A DNA stretch of 64,000 nt from an uncultured Candidatus Saccharibacteria bacterium (GCA_965230915.1 OZ246395.1:12019-76018); one strand, 5' to 3'; shown: positions 6,007 to 42,748, counted from the first letter of the stretch. Translations and numbers: made by a program. The notes: a model not told the origin generated them from the letters alone.

Positions 6007-6114
6007 TTCTGACAAAACATTGTGCTATCATGATAAACTTAAAGAACAATTCGAGTAACACGAGAATTGTTAGCGACTTAGTAGTCGCGTCCGAAACTTT
6101 AAGAAAAAATTATC

Positions 6115-7359
6115 ATGGATACTTTAAATCAATCTGCCCCAACTCCCAATAATTCTGCCGATAATCAAATTCCAAATAATAATGCACAAAATTCTGAATT
6201 TGCAGAAAAGGGCCCACTATTAAACTCGCGAATGAAGCGAAATATATTAATAGGATGTGGAATAGTTGCCGTATTAATAGCTGCTTTATTTGTAGGAGTT
6301 TTTGCTTACCAGCAAATGAATAAACCTCCTGCAATGATGCCACTTCCACCTGAACCTGTAGTTGAAAACCCTGAACCGGTACGCAGTGATACTCCACGTT
6401 TTGCGTATATTAAAAATGAAAAAAATATTTGGATTAGCAATATAAATGGGGAAGAAAAATTCAGCATTTTGGAACTTCCACTTACGAGTAAAAGTCGAGT
6501 CGTGTCACTAAGCTGGAAAGATAAAGATAATTTAAGCTATGTAACTTGCGATACAAGTACTAGCGTATGCGAAATTTCTACTTATAATTTTGAAACAAAA
6601 TCTATAAAACCTGAAGTTACTTCTACTGGCTCAACCCTTACAAAATTCGCATGGAGCAAAGATGGAAAATATCTAGCATACATAGAAAACCGTGGAAAAA
6701 ATACAAACCTACGCCTAAAACTTGGAACAATCGATAATATCCTAAAAACTTATGTGACCGATACAGAAGATGCGTCTCTTAGCAAATCAGTCGTAGATTT
6801 TAATGACGACAGCCAATATATTTTATATTCTTCTCCTGAACTTATTGTAAACGAGAATAAATCAACCACCCAAACTCAATCGGTCTATATTTATCAACTA
6901 AACGGCGCTCAAATCGATGAAATAAAGAATGTTGATTATCCGTTTTTCATTGATAACGACACAGTCGCATACAAATCAAACAATCGTCTGGTTTATAAAG
7001 ACGTAGGCACAACAGACGAATCAGCAATAACCGATTTTGCCGGATACAACCCAGCGCTTTCTCCGAACGATAATCAAATTGCATATTGGCGCGACGAGGT
7101 TGGCTTTAACAATGTTGTTTTAGGTGTTTATGAATCAGATAAAAATATCCACAGAAATATTTTGAGAGGAGTTATCTTGCCAGTTTGGGTTTCCCCAGAC
7201 AAAATTGTCGGAATAAAGGCCGACAGCTGTATTGGCGAACGATGTCTTTTATATGAATTTCAGACAACCAGTATGGTGATCGTCGATGTTAATAACGGAG
7301 AAGTTTTATCAGTAGACCAAGGAAAATCACTTACAGGAGTTGCCTTTTATGCCGATTAA
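6115..7359 (+). CDS. membrane-anchored protein with N/Q-rich N-terminus and TolB/PD40-like beta-propeller repeats
   Basis: Single TM (ILIGCGIVAVLIAALFVGVFAY); repeated ...DGKYLAY..., ...NDNQIAYWRDE... blades; overlaps the next gene by 20 nt (translational coupling). Confidence 0.5.
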   Translation: MDTLNQSAPTPNNSADNQIPNNNAQNSEFAEKGPLLNSRMKRNILIGCGIVAVLIAALFVGVFAYQQMNKPPAMMPLPPEPVVENPEPVRSDTPRFAYIKNEKNIWISNINGEEKFSILELPLTSKSRVVSLSWKDKDNLSYVTCDTSTSVCEISTYNFETKSIKPEVTSTGSTLTKFAWSKDGKYLAYIENRGKNTNLRLKLGTIDNILKTYVTDTEDASLSKSVVDFNDDSQYILYSSPELIVNENKSTTQTQSVYIYQLNGAQIDEIKNVDYPFFIDNDTVAYKSNNRLVYKDVGTTDESAITDFAGYNPALSPNDNQIAYWRDEVGFNNVVLGVYESDKNIHRNILRGVILPVWVSPDKIVGIKADSCIGERCLLYEFQTTSMVIVDVNNGEVLSVDQGKSLTGVAFYAD

Positions 7360-9217
7360 AGACGAATCACAAACAGCAGGTCGCCAGCATCCAATTCCGC
7401 AAAATGTTATGGATGTTGAATTTAAAGTTGTTGGAGATATTACCCTTCGCCAACTAATGTACCTTTTTGCTGGCGCAATTCTTGCCTATATTGTTTATAA
7501 ATCTGGCGCACCAGCATTCTGGAGGTATTTAATAGTATTCTTAACAGTCACAGGAACAATTGCAATTGCGTTTGTTCCATATGAGGAACGGGGACTAGAT
7601 AAATGGTTCATGAGTTTCATACGAGCCATGACTGCCCCCACTCAAATGGTGTGGCGAAAAACTTATTCTCCTCCCGCATATTTTTTATCTGATTATGCAA
7701 ACATTATTAAGAATGAAATTATCACTTTAACACCAGCAAAAAGTCGCAATAAATTAGATGATTATTTGGGTCAACTATCAGAATCTCAAAATGACCTAGA
7801 TAGAATTGAGGCCGCACGTTTGCAAAGTATTCGAATGGGATTTTCGACACAAGCCGGTGTTAGCGTTGTTACACAACAAGCCGCACCAAGCAGTTTTTCG
7901 CCTTCCTTAGGAGGAGGACCTACAACGGATGTAATTTTTGCCGATGAGCCAACAGCCCCAGGCCGAAGCATGTCTGACACACATGACGGAAATGCTCCGC
8001 ATGCTGAAATACAGCCGGTTCATGAAAAGGCCCCTGAACCACCAGAACAAACAAAACCTACGACAACTGAAAGTCCAAAGCCACAGCCAACACAACCAAA
8101 ACCTGAGACGAAACCAGAGCAAAATCAGGAAAACTTTGGGTCACAAAAATTGCAGCAGGCTCCAAAAAATGTTGAACAAAAGCCAATTACATCTACGCAA
8201 GCTCAACAACCAAAACCGCAGACGAAGCCGGTATCACCTGAACAAAAAGAAGCGTTAAAGGCTATCAAAGAAGATGAAGCTTCATCTAAAAAAGAATTAT
8301 TAGACTCAATCGAATTTAAAAAACCGACGTTGGGAGCACCAGCAGTTGATCGTGCAATAATAAATATTCCGTCGAATCCTAAAGGTGAAATCAAAATTAA
8401 TTTAACAACAAAATTGCCAAAAGTAATTGTGGTTCAAGATTTAAAAGAAATTCAGACAAAAGAATCGTCGCTAGAAAAAAGAGTCGGAGAACTTTTAGAA
8501 GTAGCAACTCAAGTAAGATCTGAAATGCAAGCGGCGGCTGACAAAGAAGCTCATAGAAATAAAAACCAAGGTCGTATCGAATTCTTTAATACAAAATATC
8601 AAGAACTTGAAAAAGAACGCGCAAAAATCACAACACAGCTTGATGAAAGTACAAGTCAGGTTCAACAAATTGGACAATCTGCAGATTCTGACCTAACTAA
8701 ACAGGTTCACGATCTATCGATTAAAAATGAAGAGCTAAAAGCTCAGCTTGCTCAAATTCAAGAAGAAATTAATATTTTAAGAGCAACACCTCAACAAACT
8801 GCTAAACCTGCTGAACCAGTGAAAGCTGCGGCTCAACAACCAAAAAAGCCTGAACCCACACCGGCTCCACCAAGAAATTCTGACCAAGCACAATCGTTAA
8901 ACCAGGTAACCCAATCAGATTACAAACCGGAAGATCCGAATAAAAAGGCTGTAGTTGACGCAAATTTAATCACAGGCACAGTGAAAAATAAAAAGGGCGA
9001 GCTAATTGATAACGCAGTCGTTATAATAAAAGATAAAGACGGTGATGCCATACGTGCTTTAAAGACAAATCAGTTGGGGCAGTTTAAAACACAGACTCCA
9101 ATGCAAAATGGCAAATACACAGTCGAAACAATTAAGGGAGGAATGAAGTTTGATATAATCTCGGTTGAAGCAAAAGGTCAACCAATTAGTCCACTTTCTA
9201 TCATCGCCTTCGAATAA
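7340..9217 (+). CDS. PrgI/VirB3-like membrane protein fused to a Pro/Gln/Lys-rich disordered region, a coiled coil and a C-terminal carboxypeptidase-regulatory-like beta-sandwich domain
   Basis: N-terminus GDITLRQLMYLFAGAILAYIVY plus a second TM helix matches the PrgI (VirB3) family signature; residues about 190-330 are low complexity (PEPPEQTKPTTTESPKPQPTQPKPETKPEQ); 370-470 heptad-rich; the last 100 aa (GTVKNKKGELIDNAVVIIKDKDGD...GKYTVE) resemble a CarboxypepD_reg fold. Confidence 0.55.
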   Translation: MPFMPIKDESQTAGRQHPIPQNVMDVEFKVVGDITLRQLMYLFAGAILAYIVYKSGAPAFWRYLIVFLTVTGTIAIAFVPYEERGLDKWFMSFIRAMTAPTQMVWRKTYSPPAYFLSDYANIIKNEIITLTPAKSRNKLDDYLGQLSESQNDLDRIEAARLQSIRMGFSTQAGVSVVTQQAAPSSFSPSLGGGPTTDVIFADEPTAPGRSMSDTHDGNAPHAEIQPVHEKAPEPPEQTKPTTTESPKPQPTQPKPETKPEQNQENFGSQKLQQAPKNVEQKPITSTQAQQPKPQTKPVSPEQKEALKAIKEDEASSKKELLDSIEFKKPTLGAPAVDRAIINIPSNPKGEIKINLTTKLPKVIVVQDLKEIQTKESSLEKRVGELLEVATQVRSEMQAAADKEAHRNKNQGRIEFFNTKYQELEKERAKITTQLDESTSQVQQIGQSADSDLTKQVHDLSIKNEELKAQLAQIQEEINILRATPQQTAKPAEPVKAAAQQPKKPEPTPAPPRNSDQAQSLNQVTQSDYKPEDPNKKAVVDANLITGTVKNKKGELIDNAVVIIKDKDGDAIRALKTNQLGQFKTQTPMQNGKYTVETIKGGMKFDIISVEAKGQPISPLSIIAFE

Positions 9218-9221
9218 TATT

Positions 9222-9920
9222 ATGGCCAAAAAATATTTAGCAACAACTCAAGAACATTTAGACATCTACGATATTAAAAATGGAATTGTTGTTTTAAAAA
9301 ACGGAAGTGCAGTTTGTATTTTGGAAACTAACGCAATTAACTTCGACCTTTTATCTATGATGGAGCAAGACGCAGCAATTTCTGCATACAGTAATCTTTT
9401 AAATTCATTAACTTTCCCTATTCAGGTTACTATTCGTTCTAAAAAAATGGATATCAGCGATTATTTAGAAAAAGTTAAAGAAGCCGAAAATAAACAGAGT
9501 AATCCCAAAATTAAAGAACAAATAGTTGCTTACAGAAAATTTATTCAAGAAGAACTTGTTACCAAAGAAGAAGTTTTGGATAAAAATTTTTATGTGACGA
9601 TTCCATATAAATTAACAAGCGTAGCAGCAAGTGATCCATTTGGATTCATTACAGATCTAGTCGGATTTCAAGCTAAACAACCAACCCGTGTAAATACAGA
9701 TAAAGTTTTAGAAGAAGCACGCGCAGATTTAGAACCAAAGAAAAACTTTTTGATAAAAGAATTTGCAAGAATTGGTATAAAAGCAACCGCTTTAAATACG
9801 GCAGATTTGATCAAGCTATTCTATGAAATATATAACAGTGAAACATCCCAGTCACAGAGAATTCGAGGAAATGTTGATGATTTTACGTCAGCTTTAGTTG
9901 AACCAAAGTTAAAGATTTAA
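9222..9920 (+). CDS. VirB4-family N-terminal-domain-like protein (separate ORF, same frame as the downstream ATPase)
   Basis: MAKKYLATTQEHLDIYDIKNGIVVLKNGSAVCILE..NFDLLS..EQDAAISAYSNLLNSLTFPIQV resembles the extreme N-terminus of TrsE/VirB4 proteins; the ORF-track start at 9165 overlaps the upstream gene, so the ATG at 9222 is preferred. Confidence 0.45.
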   Translation: MAKKYLATTQEHLDIYDIKNGIVVLKNGSAVCILETNAINFDLLSMMEQDAAISAYSNLLNSLTFPIQVTIRSKKMDISDYLEKVKEAENKQSNPKIKEQIVAYRKFIQEELVTKEEVLDKNFYVTIPYKLTSVAASDPFGFITDLVGFQAKQPTRVNTDKVLEEARADLEPKKNFLIKEFARIGIKATALNTADLIKLFYEIYNSETSQSQRIRGNVDDFTSALVEPKLKI

Positions 9921-9926
9921 AATAAT

Positions 9927-12335
9927 ATGGGACTATTTGGAAAATCAAAACCTAAAGAAGATACTTCAGAAACACTATCTCCAATGACTACAGTGAACAC
10001 TGGAGGGGCATCATCCGAAAGTTCTGTCTCAGCTTTTAGCGGAGTTTCAGAGCCTAAAACAAAATCTGTAAGAGCAGCAAAACCACAAAAACAAAAAGAT
10101 GAAACACCTGAACAAAAATTAGCACGAGGAATTCCATCGGTTCGAGATGTTATTGCTCCAAGTGCAATCGAAGTCGACTATAACTTTTTAAAAGTCGGAG
10201 ACAAATACTTTAGAACACTTTTTATTTCTGGATATCCACGTTTTGTCGGAGCAAACTGGCTTGAACCGATTATTAACTTTGACCACACTTTAACAATTTC
10301 GATGTTTTATTATCCGATAAACGCACGAAACGTTTTGGATGACTTGCGCCGAAAAATTGCAGAAATGGAAGCAACCATTAATATCGCACGTGAAAAAGGT
10401 AAAGTTATCGATCCCGGAGTTCAAGCGGCTTTAGAAGATGCAAAATCTTTACAGGAACAATTGGTAAAAGGTATTGAAAGATTTTTCCATTTTTCTTTTT
10501 ATGTAACTGTTTCGGCAAACACATTGGACGAATTAAATAACATTACATATCAAGTTGAATCTACTTTAGGATCTCTTTCTTTGATTTCGAAAAAAGCTAC
10601 ATTAGAAATGGAAGCCGCATTCCAGACAACAGTTCCTGTTTGTTTAGATAAATTAAAAATTATTCGTAACATGGACACCACTTCTGTTGCGACGACTTTT
10701 CCGTTTACTTCAAGCGAACTTACTTCAAACGAAGGTATTTTATATGGAGTTAACAAACACAACGGTTCATTAATTATTTTTGACCGTTTCTCTTTAGAAA
10801 ATGCGAACTCAGTAATCTTTGCAAAATCTGGTGCTGGTAAATCTTATTTGGTGAAACTCGAAGCTTTACGTTCACTTTTATTTGGAGTTGACCTGATCGT
10901 TATTGACCCCGAAACTGAATATCGAAAACTTTCTGACGCAGTTGGAGGAGAATACATCGACTTTAGTATTAACAGCTCTGCAAAAATTAATCCGTTTGAT
11001 TTGCCTGTTGTTCCTGAAGTTGAAGACCAACTTAGCATGAAGATATTAAGTTTGCACGCTTTATTCAGAATCATGTTGGGAGAACTATCAAGTTCAGAAT
11101 CGGCAGTTTTAGACCGCGCCTTAATCGACACTTACAGACTAAAAGGAATCACTCAAGACCCTAATACACAGCAAGATCGTGAACCTCCATTAATGGAAGA
11201 CCTGTATAAAGTTTTACTTGCGATGGACGAACCCGAGTCAAAATCTCTTGCCGAAAGAATGGAACGTTACATTAAAGGTTCGTTAGCAGGAGTTTTCGAC
11301 CAACGTTCAAATGTTTCTTTAGAAAATTCTTTTACAGTATTTTCTATTAGAAACTTACAAGATGTTTTGCGTCCAATCGCAATGTTCATGATTTTGGACT
11401 TTATTTGGACAAAAGTTAAACACGATTTAAAGAAACGTATATTGCTGTTAGACGAGGCTTGGACTTTGATGCAATATCCAGATTCAGCTGCATTCGTTTA
11501 TTCATTAGCAAAACGTGCAAGAAAATATTACTTGGGACTTACAACAATTACACAAGACGTTAACGACTTCTTAAATACAGATTATGGAAAAGCGGTTGTG
11601 ACCAACTCGTCTATACAAATTCTGTTAAAGCAGCACCCTGCAGCAATCGACAAAATTTCTGAAATTTTCTATTTGTCTCAAGGAGAAAGAAACTTTTTAT
11701 TGGCCGCCGGAATTGGAGAAGGATTATTCTTCGCCGGAACAAATCACGTTGCAATGCAAGTTAAAGCGTCACCACTTGAGCACCAACTGGTTACAACTAA
11801 TCCGAAAGAAGTTAAAGCTGAGCAAGACGAACAAAAGCAAAATAATGCGCCAGTTACACCGAGTATTCCACAAAGAAACGAGCAAGATTTTGAAAGATTA
11901 AAACAGAGATTCGAAACGGTGGATATTAATCAACCAAGAACACAACCTGCACCACAAGGTATGCCTCAGGCACAACCAATACAGCAACCTGGACAAACAC
12001 AAACGCAACAAATGCCAAATCCTTACCAGCAAACAAATCAGGGATATACACAAGCTCCGCAAGTTCAGATGCCGCAAACTAATGCACCTGCGCCAAGTGC
12101 GCCGCAACAAGGTGGACAAATGCCAAACCCATTTGAAAGACAATCTTTTAATGGATATCAAATGCCTGCGAATAATAATACGAACGGGGCACAACAAAAT
12201 AATTGGGCTCCGCAAAATCAACAGCAGCCAAATGCACAGCCACAAAACGGACAACCTAGCCAATCACCTAATCAGGGAACTATTCCGATTAATATGAATG
12301 GTGCTACTCCAACTCCGACTCCGCCTGGGTTTTAA
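9927..12335 (+). CDS. type IV secretion ATPase VirB4/TrsE/PrgJ family, with a long Q/P/N-rich C-terminal tail
   Basis: Walker A AKSGAGKS, Walker B ILLLDEAW, VirB4 N-domain motif (DYNFLKVGDKYFRTLFISGYPRFV); the C-terminal 190 aa are low-complexity (QQPGQTQTQQMPNPYQQTNQGY...). Confidence 0.85.
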   Translation: MGLFGKSKPKEDTSETLSPMTTVNTGGASSESSVSAFSGVSEPKTKSVRAAKPQKQKDETPEQKLARGIPSVRDVIAPSAIEVDYNFLKVGDKYFRTLFISGYPRFVGANWLEPIINFDHTLTISMFYYPINARNVLDDLRRKIAEMEATINIAREKGKVIDPGVQAALEDAKSLQEQLVKGIERFFHFSFYVTVSANTLDELNNITYQVESTLGSLSLISKKATLEMEAAFQTTVPVCLDKLKIIRNMDTTSVATTFPFTSSELTSNEGILYGVNKHNGSLIIFDRFSLENANSVIFAKSGAGKSYLVKLEALRSLLFGVDLIVIDPETEYRKLSDAVGGEYIDFSINSSAKINPFDLPVVPEVEDQLSMKILSLHALFRIMLGELSSSESAVLDRALIDTYRLKGITQDPNTQQDREPPLMEDLYKVLLAMDEPESKSLAERMERYIKGSLAGVFDQRSNVSLENSFTVFSIRNLQDVLRPIAMFMILDFIWTKVKHDLKKRILLLDEAWTLMQYPDSAAFVYSLAKRARKYYLGLTTITQDVNDFLNTDYGKAVVTNSSIQILLKQHPAAIDKISEIFYLSQGERNFLLAAGIGEGLFFAGTNHVAMQVKASPLEHQLVTTNPKEVKAEQDEQKQNNAPVTPSIPQRNEQDFERLKQRFETVDINQPRTQPAPQGMPQAQPIQQPGQTQTQQMPNPYQQTNQGYTQAPQVQMPQTNAPAPSAPQQGGQMPNPFERQSFNGYQMPANNNTNGAQQNNWAPQNQQQPNAQPQNGQPSQSPNQGTIPINMNGATPTPTPPGF

Positions 12336-12510
12336 GAATGAATAAATACGTAAAGATAGGATTAGAAATAGTATTAAACTCGACCTATTAGTGTTATTTT
12401 CTTGACTTCAAATAAAAAATGGAAGCTTTCCTATAAGTTTTTGGCTTACGATGAAAGCTTCCGACACCGATTCAGTAGACCGACTCAAATACGAAGGTGC
12501 AGATAGAGAA

Positions 12511-12936: not shown

Positions 12937-14046
12937 TTACCAGTTAGCTTTCATGGGCATGGCGAGAAAAAAGTAATTGTCTTGGTCTTTAATATTAAAC
13001 AAACCAGGCTTAAGAGGATCAGAAGCCTTAAAAATAATTTCGGCTTCATCGATATTACTTAAAAAGTCTAATAAATATTTTGCGTTAAAAGTTATTTCGA
13101 TATTGTCACCATCTAGCTCACCGTTAATTTTGCTTTGGTTGCTTCCGGTTTCTGACGGTTGAGATTTTGCCTCAATTACATCTTCATTTGCAGAAATTTT
13201 TACGCTGTTTCCGATGTCTCGTGAAAAAATGCTGGCTAACTTTATTGCATTCAAAAGTTCTGTTTTTGAAACGTGAATTTCCGATGTAAATTCTTTTGGC
13301 AAAACTGCTTCGTAATCAGGATATTGTCCTTCGATCATCCTAAGTTGAGCTTCTGAATCTTCTGCGCGAACAACGACTGCATTTTTATCTGTGTTAATTA
13401 TTATTTCTAAACTTTCAGATTTTGGTGCAAAACTTTTTACAATATCGGTAAATGCTTTTGCAGGAATAACACATCGAACTTCGCTAGAAACTTCAGATTC
13501 TAATGCTAATTTATATTCGGCCATTCGATATCCGTCGGTACACGCAATGACTAAAGTCTTGCCTTCTGCTTTTAGAAATACTCCAGTTAAAACAGGTCGT
13601 GATTCATCTGCAGCAGATGCAAATTGAACTTGTGAAATTGCCTTAACAAGTTCTGAAGATTTAATAATTAATTTATCTCCATCTTCTGGTAATTCTAAAT
13701 TTGGAAATTCACTTGCAGGAATTGTTGTTAAATTTGCTTTTGCTTTATCAGTTGTAACTCTTAAGTTTGATCCGTCTAAAGTTAATTCAATTTTCTCATC
13801 GCTTAATTGATTAACAAAATCAATTAATATTTTTGCTGGAACAGTTATTTCGCCAGGCTGATCTACTTTTGCACCAACCCATGATGAAATTGTAATTTGT
13901 AAATCTGATGAAGTAATTTTTACACGACCTTTGTCGGTACGAATTAATAAGTTTGATAAAACGGGAAGTGGACTTCGATTATTTACCGCACGACTAACGA
14001 GTGCCAAACCTTTCTGAAAATTTTCTTGTAATACAGTGAATTGCAT
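12937..14046 (-). CDS. dnaN: DNA polymerase III beta sliding clamp
   Basis: MQFTVLQENFQKGLALVSRAV..PVLSNLLI; 369 aa with three-domain clamp organisation. Confidence 0.9.
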   Translation of the reverse strand: MQFTVLQENFQKGLALVSRAVNNRSPLPVLSNLLIRTDKGRVKITSSDLQITISSWVGAKVDQPGEITVPAKILIDFVNQLSDEKIELTLDGSNLRVTTDKAKANLTTIPASEFPNLELPEDGDKLIIKSSELVKAISQVQFASAADESRPVLTGVFLKAEGKTLVIACTDGYRMAEYKLALESEVSSEVRCVIPAKAFTDIVKSFAPKSESLEIIINTDKNAVVVRAEDSEAQLRMIEGQYPDYEAVLPKEFTSEIHVSKTELLNAIKLASIFSRDIGNSVKISANEDVIEAKSQPSETGSNQSKINGELDGDNIEITFNAKYLLDFLSNIDEAEIIFKASDPLKPGLFNIKDQDNYFFLAMPMKANW

Positions 14047-14096
14047 ATTCTGTTAACTATTTGTAACAGAAAGAGTAGTAAAACGGCAAGCGGGAA

Positions 14097-14582
14097 TTAT
14101 TCGGAAATTTCTTGGTTATCAGGAATAATGATGACTCTACGGTTGTATCCTTCGCCTTCTGATGAAGATGTAACTCCTTCGAGTTCTCCAACTTTATCAT
14201 GGACAATTTTTCTTTCGTAAGAATTCATTGGATACAATGCAACTGATTTCATTAATGATTTTGCTTTTTCAGCAGCATTTTCTGCAAGTTCTGTTAATTT
14301 TCTTTCGCGTTCTAATCTGTAACCAGAAACATCAACTAAAACTCCAACACCTTCTCCGACTTCTTTAAAGAGCATTACATTTAATAGGTGCTGTAACGCA
14401 TTTAAAGTCTCTCCATGGTATCCAATTATTAAATTTGTATCTTGAGTATCTATCTCAACATAAAATCGTTCATTAGTTGTATTTCTTTCTTGTGGAAATT
14501 TAATTTCAGCTTGAACTTCTAATTGAGCGAAAATAGTTTCTAATGTTTCTTTAATTTTTTGTTCAATTTGATTTCTGTCCAT
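14097..14582 (-). CDS. khpB: RNA-binding protein Jag/KhpB (KH plus R3H domains)
   Basis: Conserved position downstream of yidC; the C-terminal R3H-like ...GEGYNRRVIIIPD. Confidence 0.78.
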   Translation of the reverse strand: MDRNQIEQKIKETLETIFAQLEVQAEIKFPQERNTTNERFYVEIDTQDTNLIIGYHGETLNALQHLLNVMLFKEVGEGVGVLVDVSGYRLERERKLTELAENAAEKAKSLMKSVALYPMNSYERKIVHDKVGELEGVTSSSEGEGYNRRVIIIPDNQEISE

Positions 14583-15351
14583 TTGTTAATTCCTTACTAG
14601 CTTTTGGGCGGGATAGATAAGCATACTGTCCAACAGCTATTATGGTCGAAATAAACCAATAAAGCGGAAGACCGGCCGGCAAATTAAATCCAAATACGAC
14701 TGTCATAATTGGCAGCATATAGGTCATTTGCTCCTGCATATTATACATAACATCATCAGACTTGTCAGGTGTATTCTCCGCTATTTTCTCCATTTTCTTA
14801 GTACTTTGCATTGTATATTTGGACATAAAAAATTGAGCAATACCAGCTAATACAGGTAAAACAAACCATGGGTCCGGTTTTGCTAAGTCCCAAAGTAAGA
14901 ATTTAGTATGTAATTGAGCTCCATCTGCAAACTTTAAAAAGTCGAGTGGATACAATAAATGGTTAATATCAGAGATCATTACCCCGCTTCCTTGCAAGAC
15001 ATTCGTGAAGACTCTATATAAAGCAATAACAATAATAATTTGGATAATCTGAGGTAAGCAACCAGCAGCCGGATTAATTCCATGTTCTTTAAATAGCTCC
15101 ATCTGCTTTTGGGCAAATTCTTCACGCTTTGGATATCTCTTTTTTAATTCGTCTATTTGTGGCTGAAGCTCTTTCTGTTTCTTAGACATCTCGAGCATCG
15201 GCTTAGAAAGCGGGTAAGTGACGACTTTAATAAGTACGGTAAGCGCAATAATGGCCAAACCTAGGTTTTCCCACATAAAGTGGTACAAAATTATGAGCCC
15301 ATTTAAAATTGGGATATAAAACAGGGTATTCCAGATATCAGTTAAAAACAT
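14563..15351 (-). CDS. yidC: membrane protein insertase YidC (short form)
   Basis: Polytopic, conserved YidC/Oxa1 core motifs, in the rnpA-yidD-yidC-jag context. Confidence 0.88.
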   Translation of the reverse strand: MFLTDIWNTLFYIPILNGLIILYHFMWENLGLAIIALTVLIKVVTYPLSKPMLEMSKKQKELQPQIDELKKRYPKREEFAQKQMELFKEHGINPAAGCLPQIIQIIIVIALYRVFTNVLQGSGVMISDINHLLYPLDFLKFADGAQLHTKFLLWDLAKPDPWFVLPVLAGIAQFFMSKYTMQSTKKMEKIAENTPDKSDDVMYNMQEQMTYMLPIMTVVFGFNLPAGLPLYWFISTIIAVGQYAYLSRPKASKELTNGQKSN

Positions 15352-15353
15352 GC

Positions 15354-15608
15354 TTAGGTAACGGGATCATATCCGCCTTTTGTAAAAGGGTTACATCGAA
15401 GTATTCTCCAAAGACCTAAAAATCCGCCTTTAAAAATGCCGTATTTATCGATGGCCTGGTATGTATATTCTGAACAATAAGGTTCAAAACGACAGACACG
15501 AACGCCCAAATGGCTAAAGGTGTGACTTTGGTCTAGAGAAATCCACTTTTGATAAAAACGAATTGATCTCAGAATTAATTTCTTCAACACTGACGACGAT
15601 TTTACCAT
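15354..15608 (-). CDS. yidD: membrane protein insertion efficiency factor YidD
   Basis: RFYQKWIS...C.FEPYCSEY signature. Confidence 0.85.
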
Positions 15609-15888
15609 TTTTGTCGAAAAATGTTTTTTTAGGGATAAAAATGAAACTGTATCTTTCCGGGAATTTCTCTAAATTGCCTTTTACTGATCTTGAAATTATT
15701 CGGCGAATTTTATTCTGCTCGACTGCCTTTTTAGTAAGACGATTTGAAGTAATAACAGCAAATTGAGGCGCCACCGCCCTATCTTCTCTATACTTAACTA
15801 TTAAATGGGGAGAGACAAACTCGGTTAAAGACTTTAAAACTCGGGTGAAATTATATCTGGTTTTGAGGCTGAATTTTCGGCTATACAC
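15514..15888 (-). CDS. rnpA: RNase P protein component
   Basis: Basic protein with RLTKK..F..V.R motif; overlaps yidD by about 95 nt in another frame. Confidence 0.78.
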
Positions 15889-15911
15889 AGCTAAATTCTA
15901 CAATAAAACGC

Positions 15912-16070
15912 TTATTTAGATACGCGTCCTCTATTAATAGCGAGTCTTACACGGCCTTTAAGTCTGCGTCTTTTAAGGACATTTCTGCCTGCTTTAGTTC
16001 GCATTCTTTTTAAGAATCCATGTTTTCTGTTTCCTTTCTTTACTTTTGGTTGCCAGGTTCTTTTCGGCAT
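15912..16070 (-). CDS. rpmH: 50S ribosomal protein L34
   Basis: [40 protein letters not shown]; the track ORF (to 16205) is a 5' extension, and the internal ATG at 16068-16070 gives the canonical length. Confidence 0.85.
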
Positions 16071-16127
16071 AGCAAGGCAAATTGTAACATAAGAGGGCAA
16101 TCCACACCATATATTAAGAGCCTGGAT

Positions 16128-16158
16128 TTGTGGATAATTTCGGGTTGACTGTGGATAA
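16128..16158. promoter_or_regulatory. two perfect DnaA boxes (TTATCCACA, reverse orientation) at the dnaA 5' end
   Basis: tgtggataa at 16128-16136 and 16150-16158; they lie upstream of the preferred dnaA ATG at 16181. Confidence 0.55.
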
Positions 16159-16180
16159 ACCTCCTTATACACTGCCAGAT

Positions 16181-17578
16181 ATGGATCAGCTGAAACTAGA
16201 TACAATTTGGAAATCTATAAAAGGAGAATTAGAAGTAGTATCTAATCCTGTTCATTTTAAGGCGAATATCCCCGGTACATATATCAGCAAAATCGACGAA
16301 GAAAATAAAATTATTGAAATTTCAGCTCCCAGCGAATATAAAAAAAACTTTATAGAAGACCGCTTTTACGGCTACTTAAAAGAAATTATTGAAAAAGATC
16401 TAGGCCGAGGATACCGACTAATGTTTACGGTTACCAAGGTTGAAAAAAATGAAACTCCACAAGATCTTGGGCCACTTTTTGACCAAGAGGAAGAGACCAA
16501 AACAGATGAGGCAGATTTTAATAAAAGACTGACAGATGCAGGACTTAGTAATAGATATACAATTGGCCGCTTTATAGTAGGATCGCACAACAAACTTGCC
16601 TATGCAGTATCTACAGCAATAATCGATAATCCAGGCAGAGTTTATAACCCATTCTTTTTATATTCTGGAGTAGGTTTAGGAAAAACCCACTTGGTTCAAG
16701 CCATTGGCTACGAAATTTTACGAAAGCATCCGGACAAAGTCGTCGTTTATAAAACCGGTGAACAATTTTTAAATGAAGTAGTTGAAGCCGTTAGGCGAGG
16801 AGGCGCAGCCAACCAAGATTTTAAGAGAAATGACCTAAAGAAGAAATATCGAAATGCAGATGTCCTCATAATCGACGATATACATGCTATCGCTGGAAAA
16901 ACTTCCACTCAGGAAGAATTTTTTAATACATTTAATACTTTGTACATGGCACAAAAGCAAATTATTTTGACTAGTGACCGAGCTCCACATGAAATAAAAA
17001 CTTTAGAGGAACGATTATCTTCAAGATTTGCCAGCGGAATTATTGCAGATATTCAAAAGCCCGATTTTGAAACAAGAGCAGCAATTTTGAAAGAAAAAAA
17101 TGAGGAACTGAATTTACAGGCTCCAGATCACGTTATCGATTATGTTGCAAATTCCGTAACGACAAGTATTCGGGAACTAGAATCGGCTTTATTACAAACG
17201 GTCACTCACGCCAGAACATTCGGACAAGACCTAACAAAAGAAACTACCACTAATATAATGAACGATATTAATCGGGAAAAACAAAGGCGGGTTACTCCGA
17301 ATACAATAATTAGGGAAACCAGTAAATATTATGGCATTACGGTTAAAGATATTAAAGGTCAGCGCCGGTTAAAAAATCTAGTAATGCCAAGACAGGTTTG
17401 CATGTATCTTCTTCGTGATATGGGAGGTTTAGGGTTCCAATCTATTGGCGAACTTTTAGGTAATCGAGATCACTCAACGGTTGTACATGGAGTTAATAAA
17501 ACTTCTGAATTAATAAAAGAGCCTACCTTTAGTAAAGAGATTGAACAAATTAAAACTAATATATTAGTTGATGCTTAA
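16181..17578 (+). CDS. dnaA: chromosomal replication initiator DnaA
   Basis: AAA+ Walker [10 protein letters not shown], a box VII region, and a C-terminal HTH (domain IV); the track start GTG at 16130 would put the DnaA boxes inside the ORF, so the ATG at 16181 ([12 protein letters not shown]...) is more typical. Confidence 0.93.
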
Positions 17579-27642: not shown

Positions 27643-28386
27643 ATGGAATCTGCTGCCATAAAAAACGATTTAATAAAAACCCTTAAGCTAATTAAGGCTG
27701 AAGAAATTCCGGTTTTAACCGAAGAAATTACAAGCTATTTTATTGCTTCAGATAAATCATCACAGCTTAATAAACCTTCGGTTCTAACTGCTTTAAATGA
27801 GTTACAACAAGAGAGAAAAGTTTTTTCCGAAGATGAATTTATAAGTTTTTCTGAAAGCTTTAAAGATAAAATAAAAGACAGGTTAGATTTAGAAGAGTCG
27901 ACGAGGGAAAAGTCTAAATATACAAAAAATCTATTTAAATTTTTAGAAAATTTACCATTTGTAAAATTTGTTGCGGCAAGCGGAAGTTCACCTTTTGGCC
28001 GAATTGCTAAAAACGAAAAAATAAAATTAATAGTAGTTGCAGATAAAGAAACCAGGCATTTATCAGAATTCTGTATAAAAAAATATTTACAGCTCAATCG
28101 GGCTTATAAAAACTTTGAAGTCGAAAAAGTTTTTGAAAGCGATAATCTTAAGTGGCATCGACCAGACGCTGAAAGCGCAATAAAACTTTTAAATATGATT
28201 GTGGTTATAAGTAAAAATAAAACCTACGAGAATTTTATGGCAACTAATAATTGGATCTTTGATATTTTTTCTAATTATCCACTAGAAAAAGTAAGCTGGG
28301 GATTCAGGGTTACAAAAAATATTGATATCAAAACTGCACCAATTTTTAAAACTTTAAACAAATTTTTGACGCCAAAAGCATTATAA
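27643..28386 (+). CDS. hypothetical cytoplasmic protein
   Basis: No recognisable motifs; convergent with the giant secreted-protein gene. Confidence 0.35.
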   Translation: MESAAIKNDLIKTLKLIKAEEIPVLTEEITSYFIASDKSSQLNKPSVLTALNELQQERKVFSEDEFISFSESFKDKIKDRLDLEESTREKSKYTKNLFKFLENLPFVKFVAASGSSPFGRIAKNEKIKLIVVADKETRHLSEFCIKKYLQLNRAYKNFEVEKVFESDNLKWHRPDAESAIKLLNMIVVISKNKTYENFMATNNWIFDIFSNYPLEKVSWGFRVTKNIDIKTAPIFKTLNKFLTPKAL

Positions 28387-31300
28387 ATCGTATTTCTCTC
28401 TGTAAGTTTTTTGCAGGTTTTCGACTTCTTCTTTAAATCCTTTTGGCATTTGGTCTATAGGTGTTTCCATCGTAAAGTTTCCTTTAGCAGAATATCTATT
28501 TAGGATTTCTTCGAGATCTGCTGCTATTTCTGCCTGAATAACTTCAGGATCAACTTTTGTCTTAACAGGGGTCATTACGGTTTGGGCGACCATTTGTGTC
28601 GGAGATTTTTCTTTTGTAATTGGTGCTGTGCCTTCGTTATCGCAAGTAGACGAAAGTTGTCCGCCTGTACAATATTGGCGTAATCCCATTTGGAATAATC
28701 CGTAGTCGCAATAACCGATATTTGCTCCCCATCGGCCTTCGGTGAATTCATCAGGTCGGCAGGATCCGTAATATCCTCTTAAAGCTCGCTTAACTGCATC
28801 GAAGTTAGATTCACTAATTGTTCCGTTTCTGTAGTCGACTCCAGCTTTTTGTTTTAGTACACGAGCAGCCAATGTTGGCGCGACTTGAGGATTGCATCGT
28901 CCATCTTTTCGATATTCGCTTTGTGGTGTTCCCGCTGCCCATCTTTGAATGTTCCAATTCTTTTGTTCTGTAGGGTCTGTTATATCGAAGACTGTGTCGT
29001 CAGTAATTTGGAACGGACCAGTTGCAGTTACGCTATTTCGTGAACATGAATTTAAGCTGCCGCCTCCTTCTATATCTAATATAACGGCGATAAGTCTTGC
29101 AGGAACGCCTGAATCTAATCCTACATTTTCGATTTGTTTTAATGTATCTCCACTAATATTGTTGCTACCCGGTGCAGAACTAAAGAAGTTTCCGCCGCCA
29201 CGGAGTGATGATAAGAATGGTTCGCACAACCCAATTGCCCGTGTAGGAAAGTCTGATGGAAGGCTTCCCGCTGCTTCGCTTAAACAATATTGTGCGGCCT
29301 GACTAAAGTGGTCGGTGTATTCGATGTACATACTTCTGGTATCGCTGCCGCTAATACTTAAATCAAGACAATCTTGCGGTCCACCAAGCCCAAATCTTGC
29401 CAACGCATTTGATAACGGGTTACTTCCGCAATTAGGTGTGGTATTGTTTCCACTCGCGTTAGATCCTGAAATACCTCCAAGTGAAAGTTTAAGTTCGAGC
29501 TCGTGTTTGCTAGGCTTTGGATCAAAATAAGAGTCGCTGACTCCCGGTACCTTATATAAACCCTGAAAAACCTGGAAGTCATAATTGCTTCTATTTTGGT
29601 TTAATTTACCCATAAAACGGCTTGGGACATATCCATATAAAAGATATTGGCGTTCACCAAATGTGCATGACCATTTTTCGTCTCCTTCATGATAGACCCC
29701 ATTTATATCTGTATAGCCTTCTTCTTCATCTTTTTCACAGTGATAGTTAAATAATTTGGCACCAGCTGCATAAAGACTTTTTATAAAGTCTGAAAATATA
29801 TTTCCTACAGAAATTGAAATATCCTCTTTATCTTCTATGTCCTTTGCTAATCTGAAAGTTTGATTTCCGGTTTGGCAGAATCCTTTTTCGCAATTTGGAT
29901 CATCTGTGACTTCTAATAAATCTTCGGCATCCATAGTTGCGCATTCTCCACCAGGAGCCCAAGTTTCACATTTTGTACAGTCGATTGGTGGAGGTGGTCT
30001 GTCGTCGACAATCCCACAAGCTCCTTCATTTGGACAGGTACATACTGGTCTTTGTGTACAGTTAGGATTGTCCGAATATGGAGCGCTACTATTTGTAATT
30101 TGGAAATGAACTTTAAGTTCCATTTTGTTTTCAGCAAGCTCACGTGGAGTTACAGGAATTGAACATCCTGGTAAAGTTTCAATCGGGACTCCATATTTTT
30201 CGCCATCATTACCGTTAGGGTTGTAAATTGGAAGACCAGCTGACTTATGTAGGTTCCCTCCATTTGGATTTCCACATGTACTGATTTGTGTTGATTGGCC
30301 GGTTGTTTTGTCGGTTACCCAATATTCAATATAGTAGCCCCAGTCGACAGGTTGAGGACACTCGGGTTGACCGTTCCATACTTTTACTGAAAACTGATTT
30401 TCTGCAGTTTTGTTTTCGATTAATATGTGAGCGCCTTGGCAATATGGCTGAGCTTCTTCATATGGAGGAGCTGCTTGAGCCTGTGCCTGTTTTGGATTTA
30501 CCGGATTTATATTATCGAGCGAATAAGAAGTTCCAATCTCTTCATCAGAATCTGTTGGGGTTTTTAGAACAACATCCGCAATATAACTTTGTGTATTTTT
30601 ATTTTGATCAGCATTTTGTTTTGCTAAAAGTTGTTGCTCTTGAGCATAATAGTCTTCTAATGATGTTGCTAATATAGTGCTTCTTCCGATTGGAACTGTG
30701 TCGCCGGGTTTTTTTACAACTGCAGCACTAAAATCCCATAGAACTTTGTCCATCGCCTGACGATCGGCTGGTTCTAAAAGTTTAATTTTATCTGCTTCAT
30801 TCATTGAAAATTTAATTAGATGTCCCATACCTATACAGGCTTCTGGTGGATCACCCGGACCACATTTTTCACCGCTTTTATCGTTCTTTAAACACTCTTC
30901 ACCTGTAGATGGATCGCAAACAGATGACTGCAAACATCCGATGAACGCCTGATTAAAAGCTAAATTATCAATTGTAGATTTGCGGCCTGGTTTAATTCCA
31001 TCTTGGCTGGGATAAACACGAGCCTGAAATGCTGCATAAGTCTCTGTTGTTCCTTGCTTTTCTGGTTGAGCCTGAATTTCAAGACCTCCTTGATATATAA
31101 ATCCTGGAATATGCGAAGTTATATAAAGAGGCAAAGATCTTGGCGTAATAGTACTGGGTTTATATTGAGCAATAGCCTTATTATTAATAAAGTCATCATT
31201 TGTAGCTGCCAATGAACCGATATATTTTTGCGTCATTGTACTAAAATCGGTGCTCCAATATTTAGTAGGGGCTATAACAATTCTTTCAGTTACAACCGCG

Positions 31301-33251: not shown

Positions 33252-33252
33252 A

Positions 33253-37233: not shown

Positions 37234-37281
37234 GTGTTATATTAATTGATTAAAGTATACATGTATGATTTAATTATTACG

Positions 37282-42328: not shown

Positions 42329-42748
42329 ATGAACAAGGTTAAATATTTAAGCTCTTTAATAGTAGCAGGAGCAACTTTAGCGGCAACTACAGTCGCAGCT
42401 AATGCACAACCATCAGGCGGAATCAGCGCTTCATCATTAAAGGTTACTAGCAGTATCGGAAACATCACAGACATATCTACTGGTGTAACTTTCATTTTGA
42501 ACTTATTCGTATATTTAGGATGGATCGGAGTTATAGTTGGAGTTGGTTTAGCTGTATTTGGTTTGGTATACAAACTTATAAATACTGATAGCGAAGAAGC
42601 AATGAAAACTGTTCAAGGCTACTTGACCAAAGCTGTTTTGATTGTTGTTGCTGGTATTTTATTGATCGGTGCAGGATTTATCGTAAAGACTGTCGCTGGT
42701 TTATTCAATGTAACACCATTAACAGTATCATCGTTTAGTTCTCAATAA
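42329..42748 (+). CDS. VirB2/TrbC pilin-like protein (paralog 3), probably highly expressed
   Basis: Strong SD AAGGAGGTG 7 nt upstream; signal peptide ...TTVAANA; TM1-loop(DSEEAMKTVQGYLTK)-TM2 architecture. Confidence 0.55.
   Translation: MNKVKYLSSLIVAGATLAATTVAANAQPSGGISASSLKVTSSIGNITDISTGVTFILNLFVYLGWIGVIVGVGLAVFGLVYKLINTDSEEAMKTVQGYLTKAVLIVVAGILLIGAGFIVKTVAGLFNVTPLTVSSFSSQ

What the first reader, a model, noticed from the sequence alone, without database searches (positions are those of the whole stretch)
6115..12335. Tightly coupled four-gene type IV secretion-like operon (TM/beta-propeller, VirB3-like fusion, split VirB4)
Four consecutive plus-strand genes overlap or abut: 7340 overlaps 6115..7359 by 20 nt, 9222 starts 5 nt after 9217, and 9927 starts 7 nt after 9920. 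The content is a PrgI/VirB3-like membrane protein and a VirB4/TrsE ATPase, which are the two most conserved components of Gram-positive-type (MPF-FATA) T4SS. A TM-anchored PD40-like beta-propeller protein and a Cys-containing two-TM protein lie upstream. No VirD4 coupling protein or relaxase is visible nearby, which suggests a non-conjugative role, for example pilus, DNA uptake or host interaction in an episymbiont.
Basis: partly seen in the sequence, partly recalled or inferred. Interest (0 to 1): 0.7.

Follow-up and report, generated by a model that had tools for sequence, protein, structure and literature searches.

The report
Patescibacteria chromosomal type IV secretion core
This is the membrane-anchor and motor operon of the chromosomal type IV secretion system that ultra-small Patescibacteria (here a WWE3 bacterium) keep beside their replication origin; the system was described in 2023-2025, so this is a real but largely ordinary example with a few lineage-specific extras.

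Summary
One detail changes: the second gene most likely starts at ATG 7349, so it overlaps the first by 11 nt, not 20.

HMM searches support the gene calls:
- 7349-9217 is a PrgI/VirB3-like protein with a long extension.
- 9222-9920 is TrsD-like and stands in for the N-terminal part of VirB4.
- 9927-12335 is a VirB4 ATPase of the CD1110 family.

The host is a candidate division WWE3 bacterium (Patescibacteria). The operon lies between groESL and dnaN/dnaA. No integrase, relaxase or coupling protein was found in the 64 kb window.

This arrangement is the published Patescibacteria T4SS (Wang 2023; Quiñonero-Coronel 2025): VirB3, TrsD and VirB4 next to dnaA/dnaN, without a relaxase.

What this analysis adds:
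- The PrgI-TrsD-VirB4 triplet is present in every one of 80 related loci that holds enough upstream sequence.
- The TolB-like propeller gene occurs only in a small WWE3 subclade.
- The upstream Cys-rich two-TM gene is not conserved.
- The rest of the machine lies 25 kb away, at 28-43 kb: a candidate VirB6-like membrane protein, a giant M23 hydrolase and VirB2-like pilins.

The most likely role is a host-contact pilus or secretion machine, not conjugation. That role is inferred, not shown.

The parts
6115..7359 (+). Membrane-anchored TolB-like beta-propeller protein of 414 aa. It is a lineage-specific gene translationally coupled to the VirB3-like gene.
   Evidence: PD40 PF07676 scores 26.7 bits against a cutoff of 20.9. 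The AF2 model has pLDDT 83: disordered residues 1-37, TM helix 38-68, Pro-rich linker, propeller 95-414. The top Foldseek PDB hits are TolB at E 7e-12. Four Cys are invariant. Only 38 homologues were found in 5.8 billion proteins. In all 7 contexts examined it lies between groEL and the PrgI-fusion gene.
7349..9217 (+). Extended VirB3/PrgI-like protein: two-TM hairpin plus conserved juxtamembrane region (about residues 1-170), P/Q/K/E-rich linker, coiled coil, and a C-terminal CarboxypepD_reg-like beta-sandwich. The ORF list gives TTG 7340 as the start.
   Evidence: PrgI PF12666 E 2.9e-9; CarboxypepD_reg at 28.2 bits is below threshold here but recurs in orthologues. The N- and C-terminal pieces each match separately in nearly all of the 80 loci. 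2,021 cluster representatives match at E<=1e-3. The K+R distribution favours an N-in/C-in topology.
9222..9920 (+). TrsD/TraD-like protein of 232 aa, equivalent to the N-terminal domain of an unsplit VirB4.
   Evidence: NCBIfam TrsD NF041427 E 2.6e-7. It also matches positions 11-128 of the CD1110 VirB4 model and positions 114-233 of the Mbov_0397 model. Orthologues carry PF26593 TraC-like. It is present in 81 of 81 loci.
9927..12335 (+). VirB4 ATPase lacking its own N-terminal domain, with a 172 aa Q/P/N-rich C-terminal tail.
   Evidence: NF045971 scores 387.5 bits against a cutoff of 325, matching model positions 175-734. PF19044 E 1.7e-26. PDB 4AG5 E 2.5e-50. Walker A is AKSGAGKS at 299-306 and Walker B is ILLLDE at 505-510; the tail is 23% Q, 17% P and 12% N.
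37246..38649 (+). Polytopic membrane protein of 462-467 aa with a signal peptide and about 6-7 TM helices. It is a candidate VirB6 equivalent, displaced 25 kb from the triplet in this genome.
   Evidence: Its homologues sit directly upstream of the PrgI-fusion gene in L003, L005 and others, and the family occurs in 32 loci. A homologue lies in the Pontibacillus T4SS cluster (E 2e-15). Pfam TrbL matches only 2 of 23 family members weakly. The top Foldseek PDB hits of a low-confidence model are TrwI/VirB6, with probability 0.93 but E 0.38. hhalign against PrgH and Tn916 Orf15 was negative.
33253..37233 (-). Giant envelope protein of 1326 aa with a C-terminal M23 peptidoglycan endopeptidase domain. 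It is a VirB1/PrgK-type wall-opening candidate.
   Evidence: Peptidase_M23 E 8.4e-21. Family members lie next to the T4SS triplet in 21 loci and in the Pontibacillus cluster (E 1e-26).
32226..33338 (-). Single-TM protein of about 340-370 aa that follows the M23 gene. By position it is equivalent to PrgL/VirB8; no homology has been shown.
   Evidence: Homologues follow the M23 gene downstream of VirB4 in 13 loci. No Pfam, NCBIfam or PDB hit was found, and hhalign against PrgL and Tn916 Orf13 was negative.
28381..32226 (-). Secreted or anchored protein of 1281 aa, last gene of the minus-strand M23 operon. Its membership in the system is uncertain.
   Evidence: It abuts the 370 aa gene, has an N-terminal hydrophobic segment, has no family hit, and has no homologue in the 80 loci.
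39171..40268 (+). VirB2-like T4SS pilin domain (C-terminal two TM helices) fused to a secreted N-terminal domain of about 260 aa.
   Evidence: T4SS_pilin PF18895 scores 30.1 bits against a cutoff of 26.6. Mbov_0395 pilin-like model E 0.0017. The pilin family has 54 ORFs in 16 related loci, mostly in arrays beside the T4SS.
42329..42748 (+). Probable VirB2-like pilin paralogue of 139 aa, with a signal peptide and two TM helices.
   Evidence: Topology. It is a paralogue of 42821-43180 (E 2e-11). TrbC and T4SS_pilin match only at E 1.6-3.1.
42821..43180 (+). Probable VirB2-like pilin paralogue of 119 aa.
   Evidence: T4SS_pilin PF18895 E 0.0039, 17.7 bits, below threshold. Two-TM topology.
12937..17578 (.). 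Context: dnaN (12937-14046, -), jag, yidC and rnpA on the minus strand, then dnaA (16130-17578, +). This is the replication-origin neighbourhood.
   Evidence: Pfam hits. Cumulative GC skew reaches its minimum at 14-16 kb. The same neighbourhood is seen in related loci.

Best explanation
The operon encodes the cytoplasmic-membrane motor module of the chromosomal Patescibacteria-type T4SS, a derivative of the monoderm MPF-FATA conjugation machinery. The host is a candidate division WWE3 bacterium.

Proposed mechanism:
- The VirB3/PrgI-like two-TM hairpin anchors the ATPase at the membrane.
- The ATPase is built from two polypeptides. TrsD supplies the VirB4 N-terminal domain, and the 802 aa protein supplies the middle and RecA-like domains with intact Walker motifs.
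- The three genes are read as one translationally coupled unit.
- The motor works with parts encoded 25 kb away: a candidate VirB6-like channel protein, a giant M23 wall hydrolase and VirB2-like pilins.
- It most likely extracts pilins from the membrane and assembles a pilus or conduit used in contact with the host bacterium, not in conjugation.
- In this WWE3 subclade an extracytoplasmic, membrane-tethered TolB-like propeller is co-expressed as a lineage-specific accessory.

Shown here: gene identities, the two-piece VirB4, conserved synteny, the oriC-adjacent housekeeping context, and the absence of relaxase, T4CP and integrase from the window. Inferred: the topology of the VirB3 extension (cytoplasmic), the roles of the candidate VirB6-like and VirB8-position proteins, the pilus/host-interaction function, and any role for the propeller.
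For: - HMM and PDB hits for PrgI, TrsD and VirB4, with intact Walker A and B motifs.
- All of the best 120 VirB4 homologues share 58-100% identity, and every source name attached to them is WWE3, Patescibacteria or unclassified 'bacterium'. The best plasmid VirB4 reaches only 38.5% identity.
- The triplet is invariant in 80 WWE3 and Microgenomatia loci, usually 2-7 kb from dnaN.
- In relatives, the candidate VirB6-like gene, the M23 gene and the pilin arrays lie beside the triplet. The window's second locus is conserved in a relative whose candidate VirB6-like protein is 74% identical.
- One pilin passes the Pfam threshold.
- Gene order is colinear with pCF10 PrgH-PrgI-PrgJ-PrgK-PrgL.
- Literature: the T4SS and its pilin array are essential for epibiotic growth of S. 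epibionticum, no relaxase or coupling protein is recognisable in that cluster, and ComEC-independent essentiality argues against a DNA-uptake role (PMC10633639; PMC12857230). TrsD, VirB3 and VirB4 near dnaA/dnaN without a relaxase is the pattern across Patescibacteria (PMC12102498).
Against: - There is no functional data for any WWE3 organism.
- VirB6 and VirB8 assignments rest on position and topology only. The sequence and profile tests were negative or sub-threshold, and the VirB6 fold hit comes from a model with pLDDT 48.7 at E 0.38.
- Two of the three pilin candidates are below threshold.
- T4CP and relaxase could lie elsewhere on the 945 kb chromosome. A relative has a T4CP-like gene near groESL, and T4CP homologues are common in Patescibacteria (PMC12102498).
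- The propeller's linkage could simply reflect inherited synteny in a small clade.
Confidence: 0.8

Rival explanations
1. It is the transfer module of an integrative conjugative element or a remnant of one, and it moves DNA between cells with a relaxase and coupling protein encoded elsewhere.
For: - VirB4, PrgI and TrsD are conjugation-derived families.
- The closest characterised systems (pCF10, Tn916, pGO1) are conjugative.
- A T4CP-like gene lies near the locus in one relative.
Against: - The flanks are groESL, dnaN, yidC, rnpA and dnaA, and they are syntenic across class-level divergence.
- G+C across the operon (0.36-0.38) matches the window.
- No integrase, relaxase or T4CP was found in 64 kb.
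- Only 109 relaxases were found in 3,035 Patescibacteria genomes (PMC12102498).
Confidence: 0.07
2. It is a DNA-uptake machine, analogous to the Helicobacter ComB or archaeal Ced systems, that imports host DNA as a source of nucleotides.
For: - VirB4 gives weak hits to CedB and CedD (E 3.6e-12 and 1.7e-4).
- These organisms cannot make nucleotides de novo (PMC10633639).
- ABY1-class T4SS loci co-localise with comF, recG and radA (PMC12102498).
Against: - The CedB score is 45.7 bits against a cutoff of 700, which is generic VirB4-superfamily similarity.
- In S. epibionticum, competence needs ComEC and T4P, and the ΔcomEC mutant is viable while the T4SS is essential (PMC12857230, citing Wang 2023).
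- No competence genes lie beside the triplet; comFC-like (50953-51699) and recA (61373-62449) genes lie elsewhere in the window, 40-50 kb away.
Confidence: 0.08
3. The four genes are not one functional unit. The propeller gene is an unrelated envelope protein that merely sits upstream, and only the last three genes belong to the T4SS.
For: - The propeller is absent from 76 of the 80 related loci. In those the upstream gene is a candidate VirB6-like protein, an epimerase-DUF4012 protein, a ProRS-like protein or a regulator.
- Short gaps are common in this genome.
Against: - In all 7 contexts, across 35-100% identity, the propeller gene abuts or overlaps the PrgI-fusion gene, with gaps of -50 to +2 nt.
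- The family seems not to occur anywhere else: only 38 homologues were found.
Confidence: 0.4

Closest known systems
Patescibacteria-clade chromosomal T4SS (Southlakia epibionticum SEML1_0006-0019, Wang et al. 2023, PMC10633639; survey by Quiñonero-Coronel et al. 2025, PMC12102498)
   Same: - VirB3/PrgI, TrsD and VirB4 are adjacent.
- The locus is chromosomal and lies next to dnaA/dnaN.
- No relaxase or T4CP lies nearby.
- VirB2-like pilins and a peptidoglycan hydrolase are associated.
- The host is a monoderm with a reduced genome.
   Different: - Here the system is split into two loci 25 kb apart.
- A membrane-anchored TolB-like propeller gene is coupled upstream. The main text of the survey mentions no propeller, PD40, CarboxypepD_reg or WWE3.
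- VirB3 carries a C-terminal extension of about 450 aa.
- One pilin is fused to a secreted domain of about 260 aa.
- Essentiality has been shown only in Saccharibacteria.
pGO1/pSK41 TrsC-TrsD-TrsE module (MPF-FATA subclass, Staphylococcus)
   Same: It is the only characterised conjugation subclass with a separate TrsD protein resembling the VirB4 N-terminus next to VirB4 (PMC12102498).
   Different: It is plasmid-borne and conjugative, with a relaxase and T4CP, and has no pilins. The TrsD hit here (30.7 bits) is far below the curated cutoff of 200 bits.
pCF10 PrgH-PrgI-PrgJ-PrgK-PrgL and Tn916 Orf17-Orf13 (Enterococcus)
   Same: The gene order is colinear: membrane protein, VirB3, VirB4, wall hydrolase, single-TM protein. 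VirB4 aligns to PrgJ residues 212-772 at 27% identity, E 4e-44.
   Different: - PrgJ is a single polypeptide and PrgI is only 117 aa.
- The hydrolase domains differ (lysozyme/CHAP versus M23).
- A relaxase, a T4CP and adhesins are present.
- No similarity to PrgH, PrgL, Orf15 or Orf13 was detectable.
Pontibacillus sp. ALD_SL1 898 kb non-mobilizable replicon, T4SS-like cluster (NZ_CP062975.1, 351.8-361.4 kb)
   Same: It has the same set and order of genes: two pilin-like proteins, a protein homologous to the candidate VirB6-like family, PrgI, a TrsD-like protein, VirB4 (38.5% identity) and an M23 hydrolase. The family HMMs match at E 7e-23 to 4e-6.
   Different: The host is a Bacillota species. 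PrgI is short (116 aa, no extension), the protein homologous to the candidate VirB6-like family is 779 aa, and there is no propeller. The cluster is uncharacterised and lies beside flagellar genes.
TolB (Tol-Pal system) as the fold relative of the 6115-7359 product
   Same: It shares the PD40-type beta-propeller fold (Foldseek E 7e-12, TM about 0.45).
   Different: It is not a TolB orthologue: TIGR02800 scores 21.8 bits against a cutoff of 343. It has an N-terminal TM anchor instead of a signal peptide, the host is a monoderm, and no Tol-Pal partners were found among the scanned ORFs of the window.

Membership tests
Patescibacteria-clade T4SS (PMC12102498) | VirB4 of MPF-FATA type that clusters with Patescibacteria VirB4s | tested here: met
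   NF045971 scores 387.5 bits against a cutoff of 325. The top 120 homologues share 58-100% identity and every source name given is CPR or unclassified 'bacterium'; the best plasmid VirB4 is 38.5% identical. No phylogenetic tree was built, so clade placement rests on this identity proxy.
Patescibacteria-clade T4SS (PMC12102498) | TrsD homologue encoded next to virB4 | tested here: met
   NF041427 E 2.6e-7 (30.7 bits, below the curated cutoff of 200 bits). It also hits the N-terminal positions of two VirB4 models. PF26593 TraC-like is recorded on orthologues. The gene lies directly upstream, with a 6 nt spacer.
Patescibacteria-clade T4SS (PMC12102498) | VirB3/PrgI homologue associated with virB4 | tested here: met
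   PF12666 scores 37.8 bits against a cutoff of 27, over residues 18-103.
Patescibacteria-clade T4SS (PMC12102498) | Chromosomal location near dnaA/dnaN, not on a mobile element | tested here: met
   dnaN lies 0.6 kb downstream and dnaA 3.8 kb downstream; groESL lies upstream. The arrangement is syntenic in relatives.
Patescibacteria-clade T4SS (PMC12102498) | VirB2-like pilin genes | tested here: met
   PF18895 scores 30.1 bits against a cutoff of 26.6 for 39171-40268. Two further candidates are below threshold. All lie 27-31 kb from virB4, not beside it.
Patescibacteria-clade T4SS (PMC12102498) | No relaxase associated with the system | tested here: inconclusive
   None was found in the 64 kb window. 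The other 880 kb or so of the chromosome could not be read with these tools.
Conjugative MPF-FATA T4SS (pCF10, Tn916, pGO1 types) | Relaxase and type IV coupling protein encoded with the MPF genes | tested here: not met
   No T4SS-DNA_transf, TrwB, TraG-D_C or relaxase Pfam hit in any scanned ORF of the window. Compare pCF10, where both lie within 12 kb of prgJ.
Conjugative MPF-FATA T4SS (pCF10, Tn916, pGO1 types) | Carried on a plasmid or ICE (integrase, replication or partition genes, atypical composition) | tested here: not met
   The flanks are housekeeping genes, G+C is even, and no integrase was found.
VirB6/TrbL/PrgH family (for 37246-38649) | Significant match to a VirB6-family profile or structure | tested here: inconclusive
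   The window protein has no Pfam or NCBIfam hit. TrbL matches 2 of 23 homologues, best E 0.013. A PDB profile search found nothing. hhalign against PrgH and Orf15 gave probabilities of 5% or less. The top 4 Foldseek PDB hits are TrwI/VirB6, but at E 0.38 and from a model with pLDDT 48.7. Position and topology fit.
VirB8/PrgL/TcpC family (for 32226-33338) | NTF2-like domain after an N-terminal TM helix, or a profile match | tested here: inconclusive
   The N-terminal TM helix is present. There is no Pfam, NCBIfam or PDB hit. hhalign against PrgL and Tn916 Orf13 was negative.
TolB (Tol-Pal) | Equivalog-level match to TIGR02800, with a periplasmic N-terminal alpha/beta domain | tested here: not met
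   21.8 bits against a cutoff of 343. The model shows a TM helix, a linker and a propeller only. The resemblance is at the fold level only.
Ced DNA-import system (CedB) | Equivalog-level match to CedB NF041017 | tested here: not met
   45.7 bits against a cutoff of 700.

The most novel reading that the evidence does not exclude
Two features that the main text of the T4SS survey (PMC12102498) does not mention, and that two further literature searches did not surface, may be real structural elements of a non-conjugative T4SS.

1. VirB3 here, and in thousands of WWE3 and Microgenomatia relatives, carries a conserved extension that is probably cytoplasmic: a linker, a coiled coil and an Ig-like beta-sandwich. 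It might form a new cytoplasmic ring or a substrate-docking platform in place of the missing coupling protein.
2. One WWE3 subclade has recruited a membrane-tethered, disulfide-bonded TolB-like propeller as an extracellular T4SS accessory, for example to bind the host envelope or its own wall.
Probability: 0.3. Interest if true: 0.5.

Novelty: new member of a known kind. Interest (0 to 1): 0.3.

Why it matters
The Patescibacteria T4SS is the first T4SS shown to be essential to the bacterium that carries it, and its substrate is unknown. This locus adds little to that question on its own. It does give a clean example from WWE3, a class with no cultured representative.

It shows three things:
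- Only the VirB3-TrsD-VirB4 triplet is fixed, while the other parts move around the chromosome.
- VirB3 is routinely extended by a conserved C-terminal domain in these classes.
- Accessory envelope proteins such as the propeller are swapped in at the clade level.

The Pontibacillus cluster, which has the same gene order and also has pilins, is a possible culturable Bacillota model for this machine.

Tried and rejected
- VirB6 identity of 37246-38649. I tried a Pfam scan of the protein and of 23 homologues, NCBIfam, a PDB profile search, and hhalign against pCF10 PrgH and Tn916 Orf15. I also ran family HMMs against known Enterococcus components. All were negative or sub-threshold.
- The database search for that protein returned only 5 homologues. 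The AF2 model was therefore poor (pLDDT 48.7), and its VirB6 fold hits are only suggestive. The afdb50 fold library was unavailable.
- VirB8 identity of 32226-33338. The PDB profile search and hhalign against PrgL and Orf13 were all negative.
- Direct TrsD to PrgJ N-terminus BLAST gave nothing significant. The link rests on the NCBIfam models instead.
- The Cys-rich protein at 5554-6006, and the small membrane ORFs at 4663-5112, 5119-5505 and 12511-12849, were considered as components. They were rejected because no homologue occurs in any of the 80 related loci and no family hit was found.
- The ICE reading was rejected on context.
- The promoter and terminator scan gave no more promoter-like sites than shuffled sequence, so it was not used.

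Full report
OBSERVATION

The four plus-strand ORFs exist as described: 6115-7359 (414 aa), 7340-9217 (625 aa from a TTG), 9222-9920 (232 aa from the ATG) and 9927-12335 (802 aa). The spacers at the last two junctions are 4 and 6 nt.

At the first junction an AGGAG at 7335-7339 lies 9 nt before ATG 7349, and orthologues align from residue 4. The second gene therefore most likely starts at 7349 and overlaps the first by 11 nt, not 20.

Tight spacing is not special in this genome: 46% of same-strand neighbour pairs in the window are 10 nt or less apart. The operon reading rests on conservation of the arrangement, described below.

GENE IDENTITIES

- The 7349-9217 product has an N-terminal PrgI domain (PF12666, E 2.9e-9, above threshold) and a C-terminal CarboxypepD_reg-like beta-sandwich. 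The latter scores 28.2 bits, just below threshold here, but recurs in orthologues.
- The 802 aa protein is a VirB4 of the CD1110 family. It scores 387.5 bits against a cutoff of 325 and matches model positions 175-734. It matches the solved VirB4 C-terminal domain 4AG5 at E 2.5e-50. Walker A (AKSGAGKS) and Walker B (ILLLDE) are intact.
- The 232 aa protein hits TrsD/TraD (E 2.6e-7) and positions 11-128 of the same CD1110 model. Together the two genes cover an unsplit VirB4.
- This is not a recent break. Separate TrsD and VirB4 genes occur in all 81 loci examined. The literature reports 1,664 TrsD genes beside virB4 in Patescibacteria (PMC12102498).
- The 414 aa protein passes the PD40 threshold. 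It models confidently (pLDDT 83) as a disordered N-terminal tail, one TM helix, a Pro-rich linker and a beta-propeller. Its best structural matches are TolB at E 7e-12. It is not a TolB orthologue: it scores 21.8 bits against a cutoff of 343. Four invariant cysteines fit an extracytoplasmic location.

ORGANISM AND CONTEXT

The VirB4 is identical to a protein on a 945,287 bp NCBI contig. Where the sources name its nearest relatives, they are candidate division WWE3 and other Patescibacteria.

The operon lies between groES-groEL (2681-4611) and dnaN, jag, yidC and rnpA on the minus strand. dnaA is at 16130-17578, and cumulative GC skew reaches its minimum at 14-16 kb. This is the origin region of the chromosome. 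G+C is even across it. Pfam scans of the ORFs of 100 aa or more, covering every ORF of at least 230 aa in the 64 kb, found no integrase, relaxase or coupling protein.

COMPARATIVE ANATOMY

A scan of species-representative genomes returned 80 loci from WWE3 and Microgenomatia.

- The PrgI N-terminal piece, the C-terminal beta-sandwich piece, TrsD and VirB4 were each found, in that order, in essentially every locus that has enough upstream sequence. All 78 PrgI-family ORFs carry both ends.
- Protein lengths run from 316 to 903 aa because the middle region varies.
- An exhaustive search finds 2,021 50%-identity cluster representatives of this extended VirB3 family.
- K+R counts average 0.22 in the inter-TM loop, against 1.5 in the N-terminal flank and 2.3 in the C-terminal flank. 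This favours an N-in/C-in hairpin, as expected for VirB3. The extension is therefore probably cytoplasmic and lies beside TrsD and VirB4. This is an inference.

The gene upstream of the triplet is not fixed:
- an epimerase-DUF4012 protein of about 1040 aa in 19 loci;
- a polytopic membrane protein of about 460 aa in 9 loci;
- a ProRS-like protein in 5 loci;
- an AAA+/OmpR-type regulator in 4 loci;
- the propeller only in the window and three close relatives.

The propeller family has just 38 members among 5.8 billion proteins. In three further contexts, at 35-37% identity, it again lies between groEL and the PrgI-fusion gene, with gaps of +1, +1 and -17 nt. It is thus a clade-specific addition that is always co-located with the T4SS. 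Because the whole neighbourhood is syntenic in that clade, co-location alone does not prove a shared function. The Cys-containing two-TM gene at 5554-6006 has no counterpart in any related locus.

THE REST OF THE MACHINE

In L003, L005 and similar loci the triplet is preceded by a polytopic membrane protein. Upstream of that lie a divergently transcribed giant M23-type protein with a small single-TM protein, and then an array of T4SS_pilin genes.

The window has homologues of all of these, but 25 kb away:
- 37246-38649, the membrane protein;
- 33253-37233, a 1326 aa protein with Peptidase_M23 at E 8.4e-21;
- 32226-33338, the single-TM protein;
- 39171-40268, a T4SS_pilin domain above threshold, fused to a secreted domain;
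- 42329-42748 and 42821-43180, two small two-TM paralogues with sub-threshold pilin hits.

The same second-locus layout recurs in a relative whose membrane protein is 74% identical.

In Microgenomatia the order is PrgI-fusion, TrsD, VirB4, M23, single-TM protein. That order is colinear with pCF10 PrgI-PrgJ-PrgK-PrgL, with PrgH upstream. By position, the membrane protein corresponds to VirB6/PrgH and the single-TM protein to VirB8/PrgL.

Homology could not be shown. Profile, PDB and hhalign tests were negative or sub-threshold. The only positive hint is that a low-confidence model (pLDDT 48.7) has TrwI/VirB6 of R388 as its top four PDB matches, with probability up to 0.93 but E 0.38.

COMPARISON WITH WHAT IS KNOWN

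This is the Patescibacteria T4SS.

- Wang et al. 2023 (PMC10633639) found an unusual Gram-positive-like T4SS with a pilin array, and without a recognisable relaxase or coupling protein, to be essential for epibiotic growth of Southlakia epibionticum.
- Quiñonero-Coronel et al. 2025 (PMC12102498) showed that most Patescibacteria carry a monophyletic, MPF-FATA-derived VirB4. TrsD, VirB3, VirB6 and VirB2-like genes lie nearby, often next to dnaA/dnaN and usually without a relaxase.
[quoted passage not shown] It also notes that the ΔcomEC mutant is viable, which argues against essential DNA uptake.

The main text of the survey does not mention WWE3, a propeller, PD40 or a CarboxypepD_reg extension of VirB3. 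Those details may be new, but they are modest.

A BACILLOTA COUNTERPART

The best plasmid-database VirB4 matches (38.5% identity) include a Pontibacillus 898 kb non-mobilizable replicon. Its cluster has two pilin-like genes, a 779 aa homologue of the candidate VirB6-like family, a short PrgI, a TrsD-like gene, VirB4 and an M23 hydrolase, in the same order as the Patescibacteria loci.

MECHANISM

- Shown: gene identities, the two-piece ATPase with intact motifs, the conserved coupled triplet, the associated envelope genes, and the non-mobile context.
- Inferred from established T4SS biology: VirB3 anchors VirB4 at the membrane, and VirB4 energises machine assembly and pilus biogenesis (as summarised in PMC12102498). 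The motor therefore most likely drives assembly of a VirB2-type pilus or channel through a wall opened by the M23 enzyme, and this structure is used at the host interface.
- Unknown: whether it exports proteins, imports molecules or only adheres.

VERDICT

I rate it a new member of a known kind, with interest of about 0.3.

Noticed in passing
L090 (NZ_CP062975.1 351.8-361.4 kb; locus coordinates 5483-15036): A Pontibacillus (Bacillota) 898 kb non-mobilizable replicon carries the same gene set and order as the Patescibacteria T4SS: two pilin-like genes, a homologue of the candidate VirB6-like family, a short PrgI, a TrsD-like gene, VirB4 and an M23 hydrolase. It lies beside flagellar genes. It could be a culturable model, or an outgroup, for a pilin-bearing monoderm T4SS.
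   Followed up: partly
window 11817-12335 (VirB4 residues 631-802): VirB4 ends in a 172 aa low-complexity tail that is 23% Q, 17% P and 12% N. The tail's length varies widely among homologues (560-905 aa proteins), and its function is unknown.
   Followed up: partly
L088 1-1117 (-): A related WWE3 contig encodes a VirD4-like coupling protein (PF02534; the product is 720 aa) about 6 kb upstream of the propeller gene and 3.3 kb from groES. So T4CP genes do occur near this locus in the clade, although none lies in this window.
   Followed up: no
window 6073-6088: A perfect 6 bp palindrome with a 4 nt loop (GCGACT-TAGT-AGTCGC) lies in the 108 nt gap upstream of the propeller gene. No T-run follows it. 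It could be an operator or an RNA hairpin.
   Followed up: no
window 2681-12335 versus 14000-16100: groESL and the T4SS operon lie on the + strand to the left of the apparent origin (the skew minimum at 14-16 kb, between rnpA and dnaA). They are therefore transcribed towards oriC, head-on to the leftward replication fork and convergent with dnaN.
   Followed up: no
L051 5661-6971, L059 6005-7261, L065, L083: In several Microgenomatia loci the gene upstream of the PrgI fusion is a protein of about 420 aa with an N-terminal ATPase-like region and a C-terminal OmpR-type winged helix. It is a candidate dedicated regulator of the T4SS in that class.
   Followed up: no
window 28381-32226 (-) and 48248-50095 (-): Two large predicted envelope proteins (1281 aa and 615 aa) have no Pfam match, and the 1281 aa one has no NCBIfam match either. 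The 1281 aa gene ends the M23 operon and has no homologue in the 80 related loci.
   Followed up: partly
window 47346-48229 (-): A tmRNA gene (tag peptide ERNYPSAV, Rfam 87 bits) lies next to smpB.
   Followed up: no
window 40385-42220 (-): A 611 aa protein with a coiled coil and a SpoIID domain sits between the pilin genes. The same placement is seen in a close relative and near the pilin array of L075. It may be a second wall-remodelling enzyme tied to the system.
   Followed up: partly
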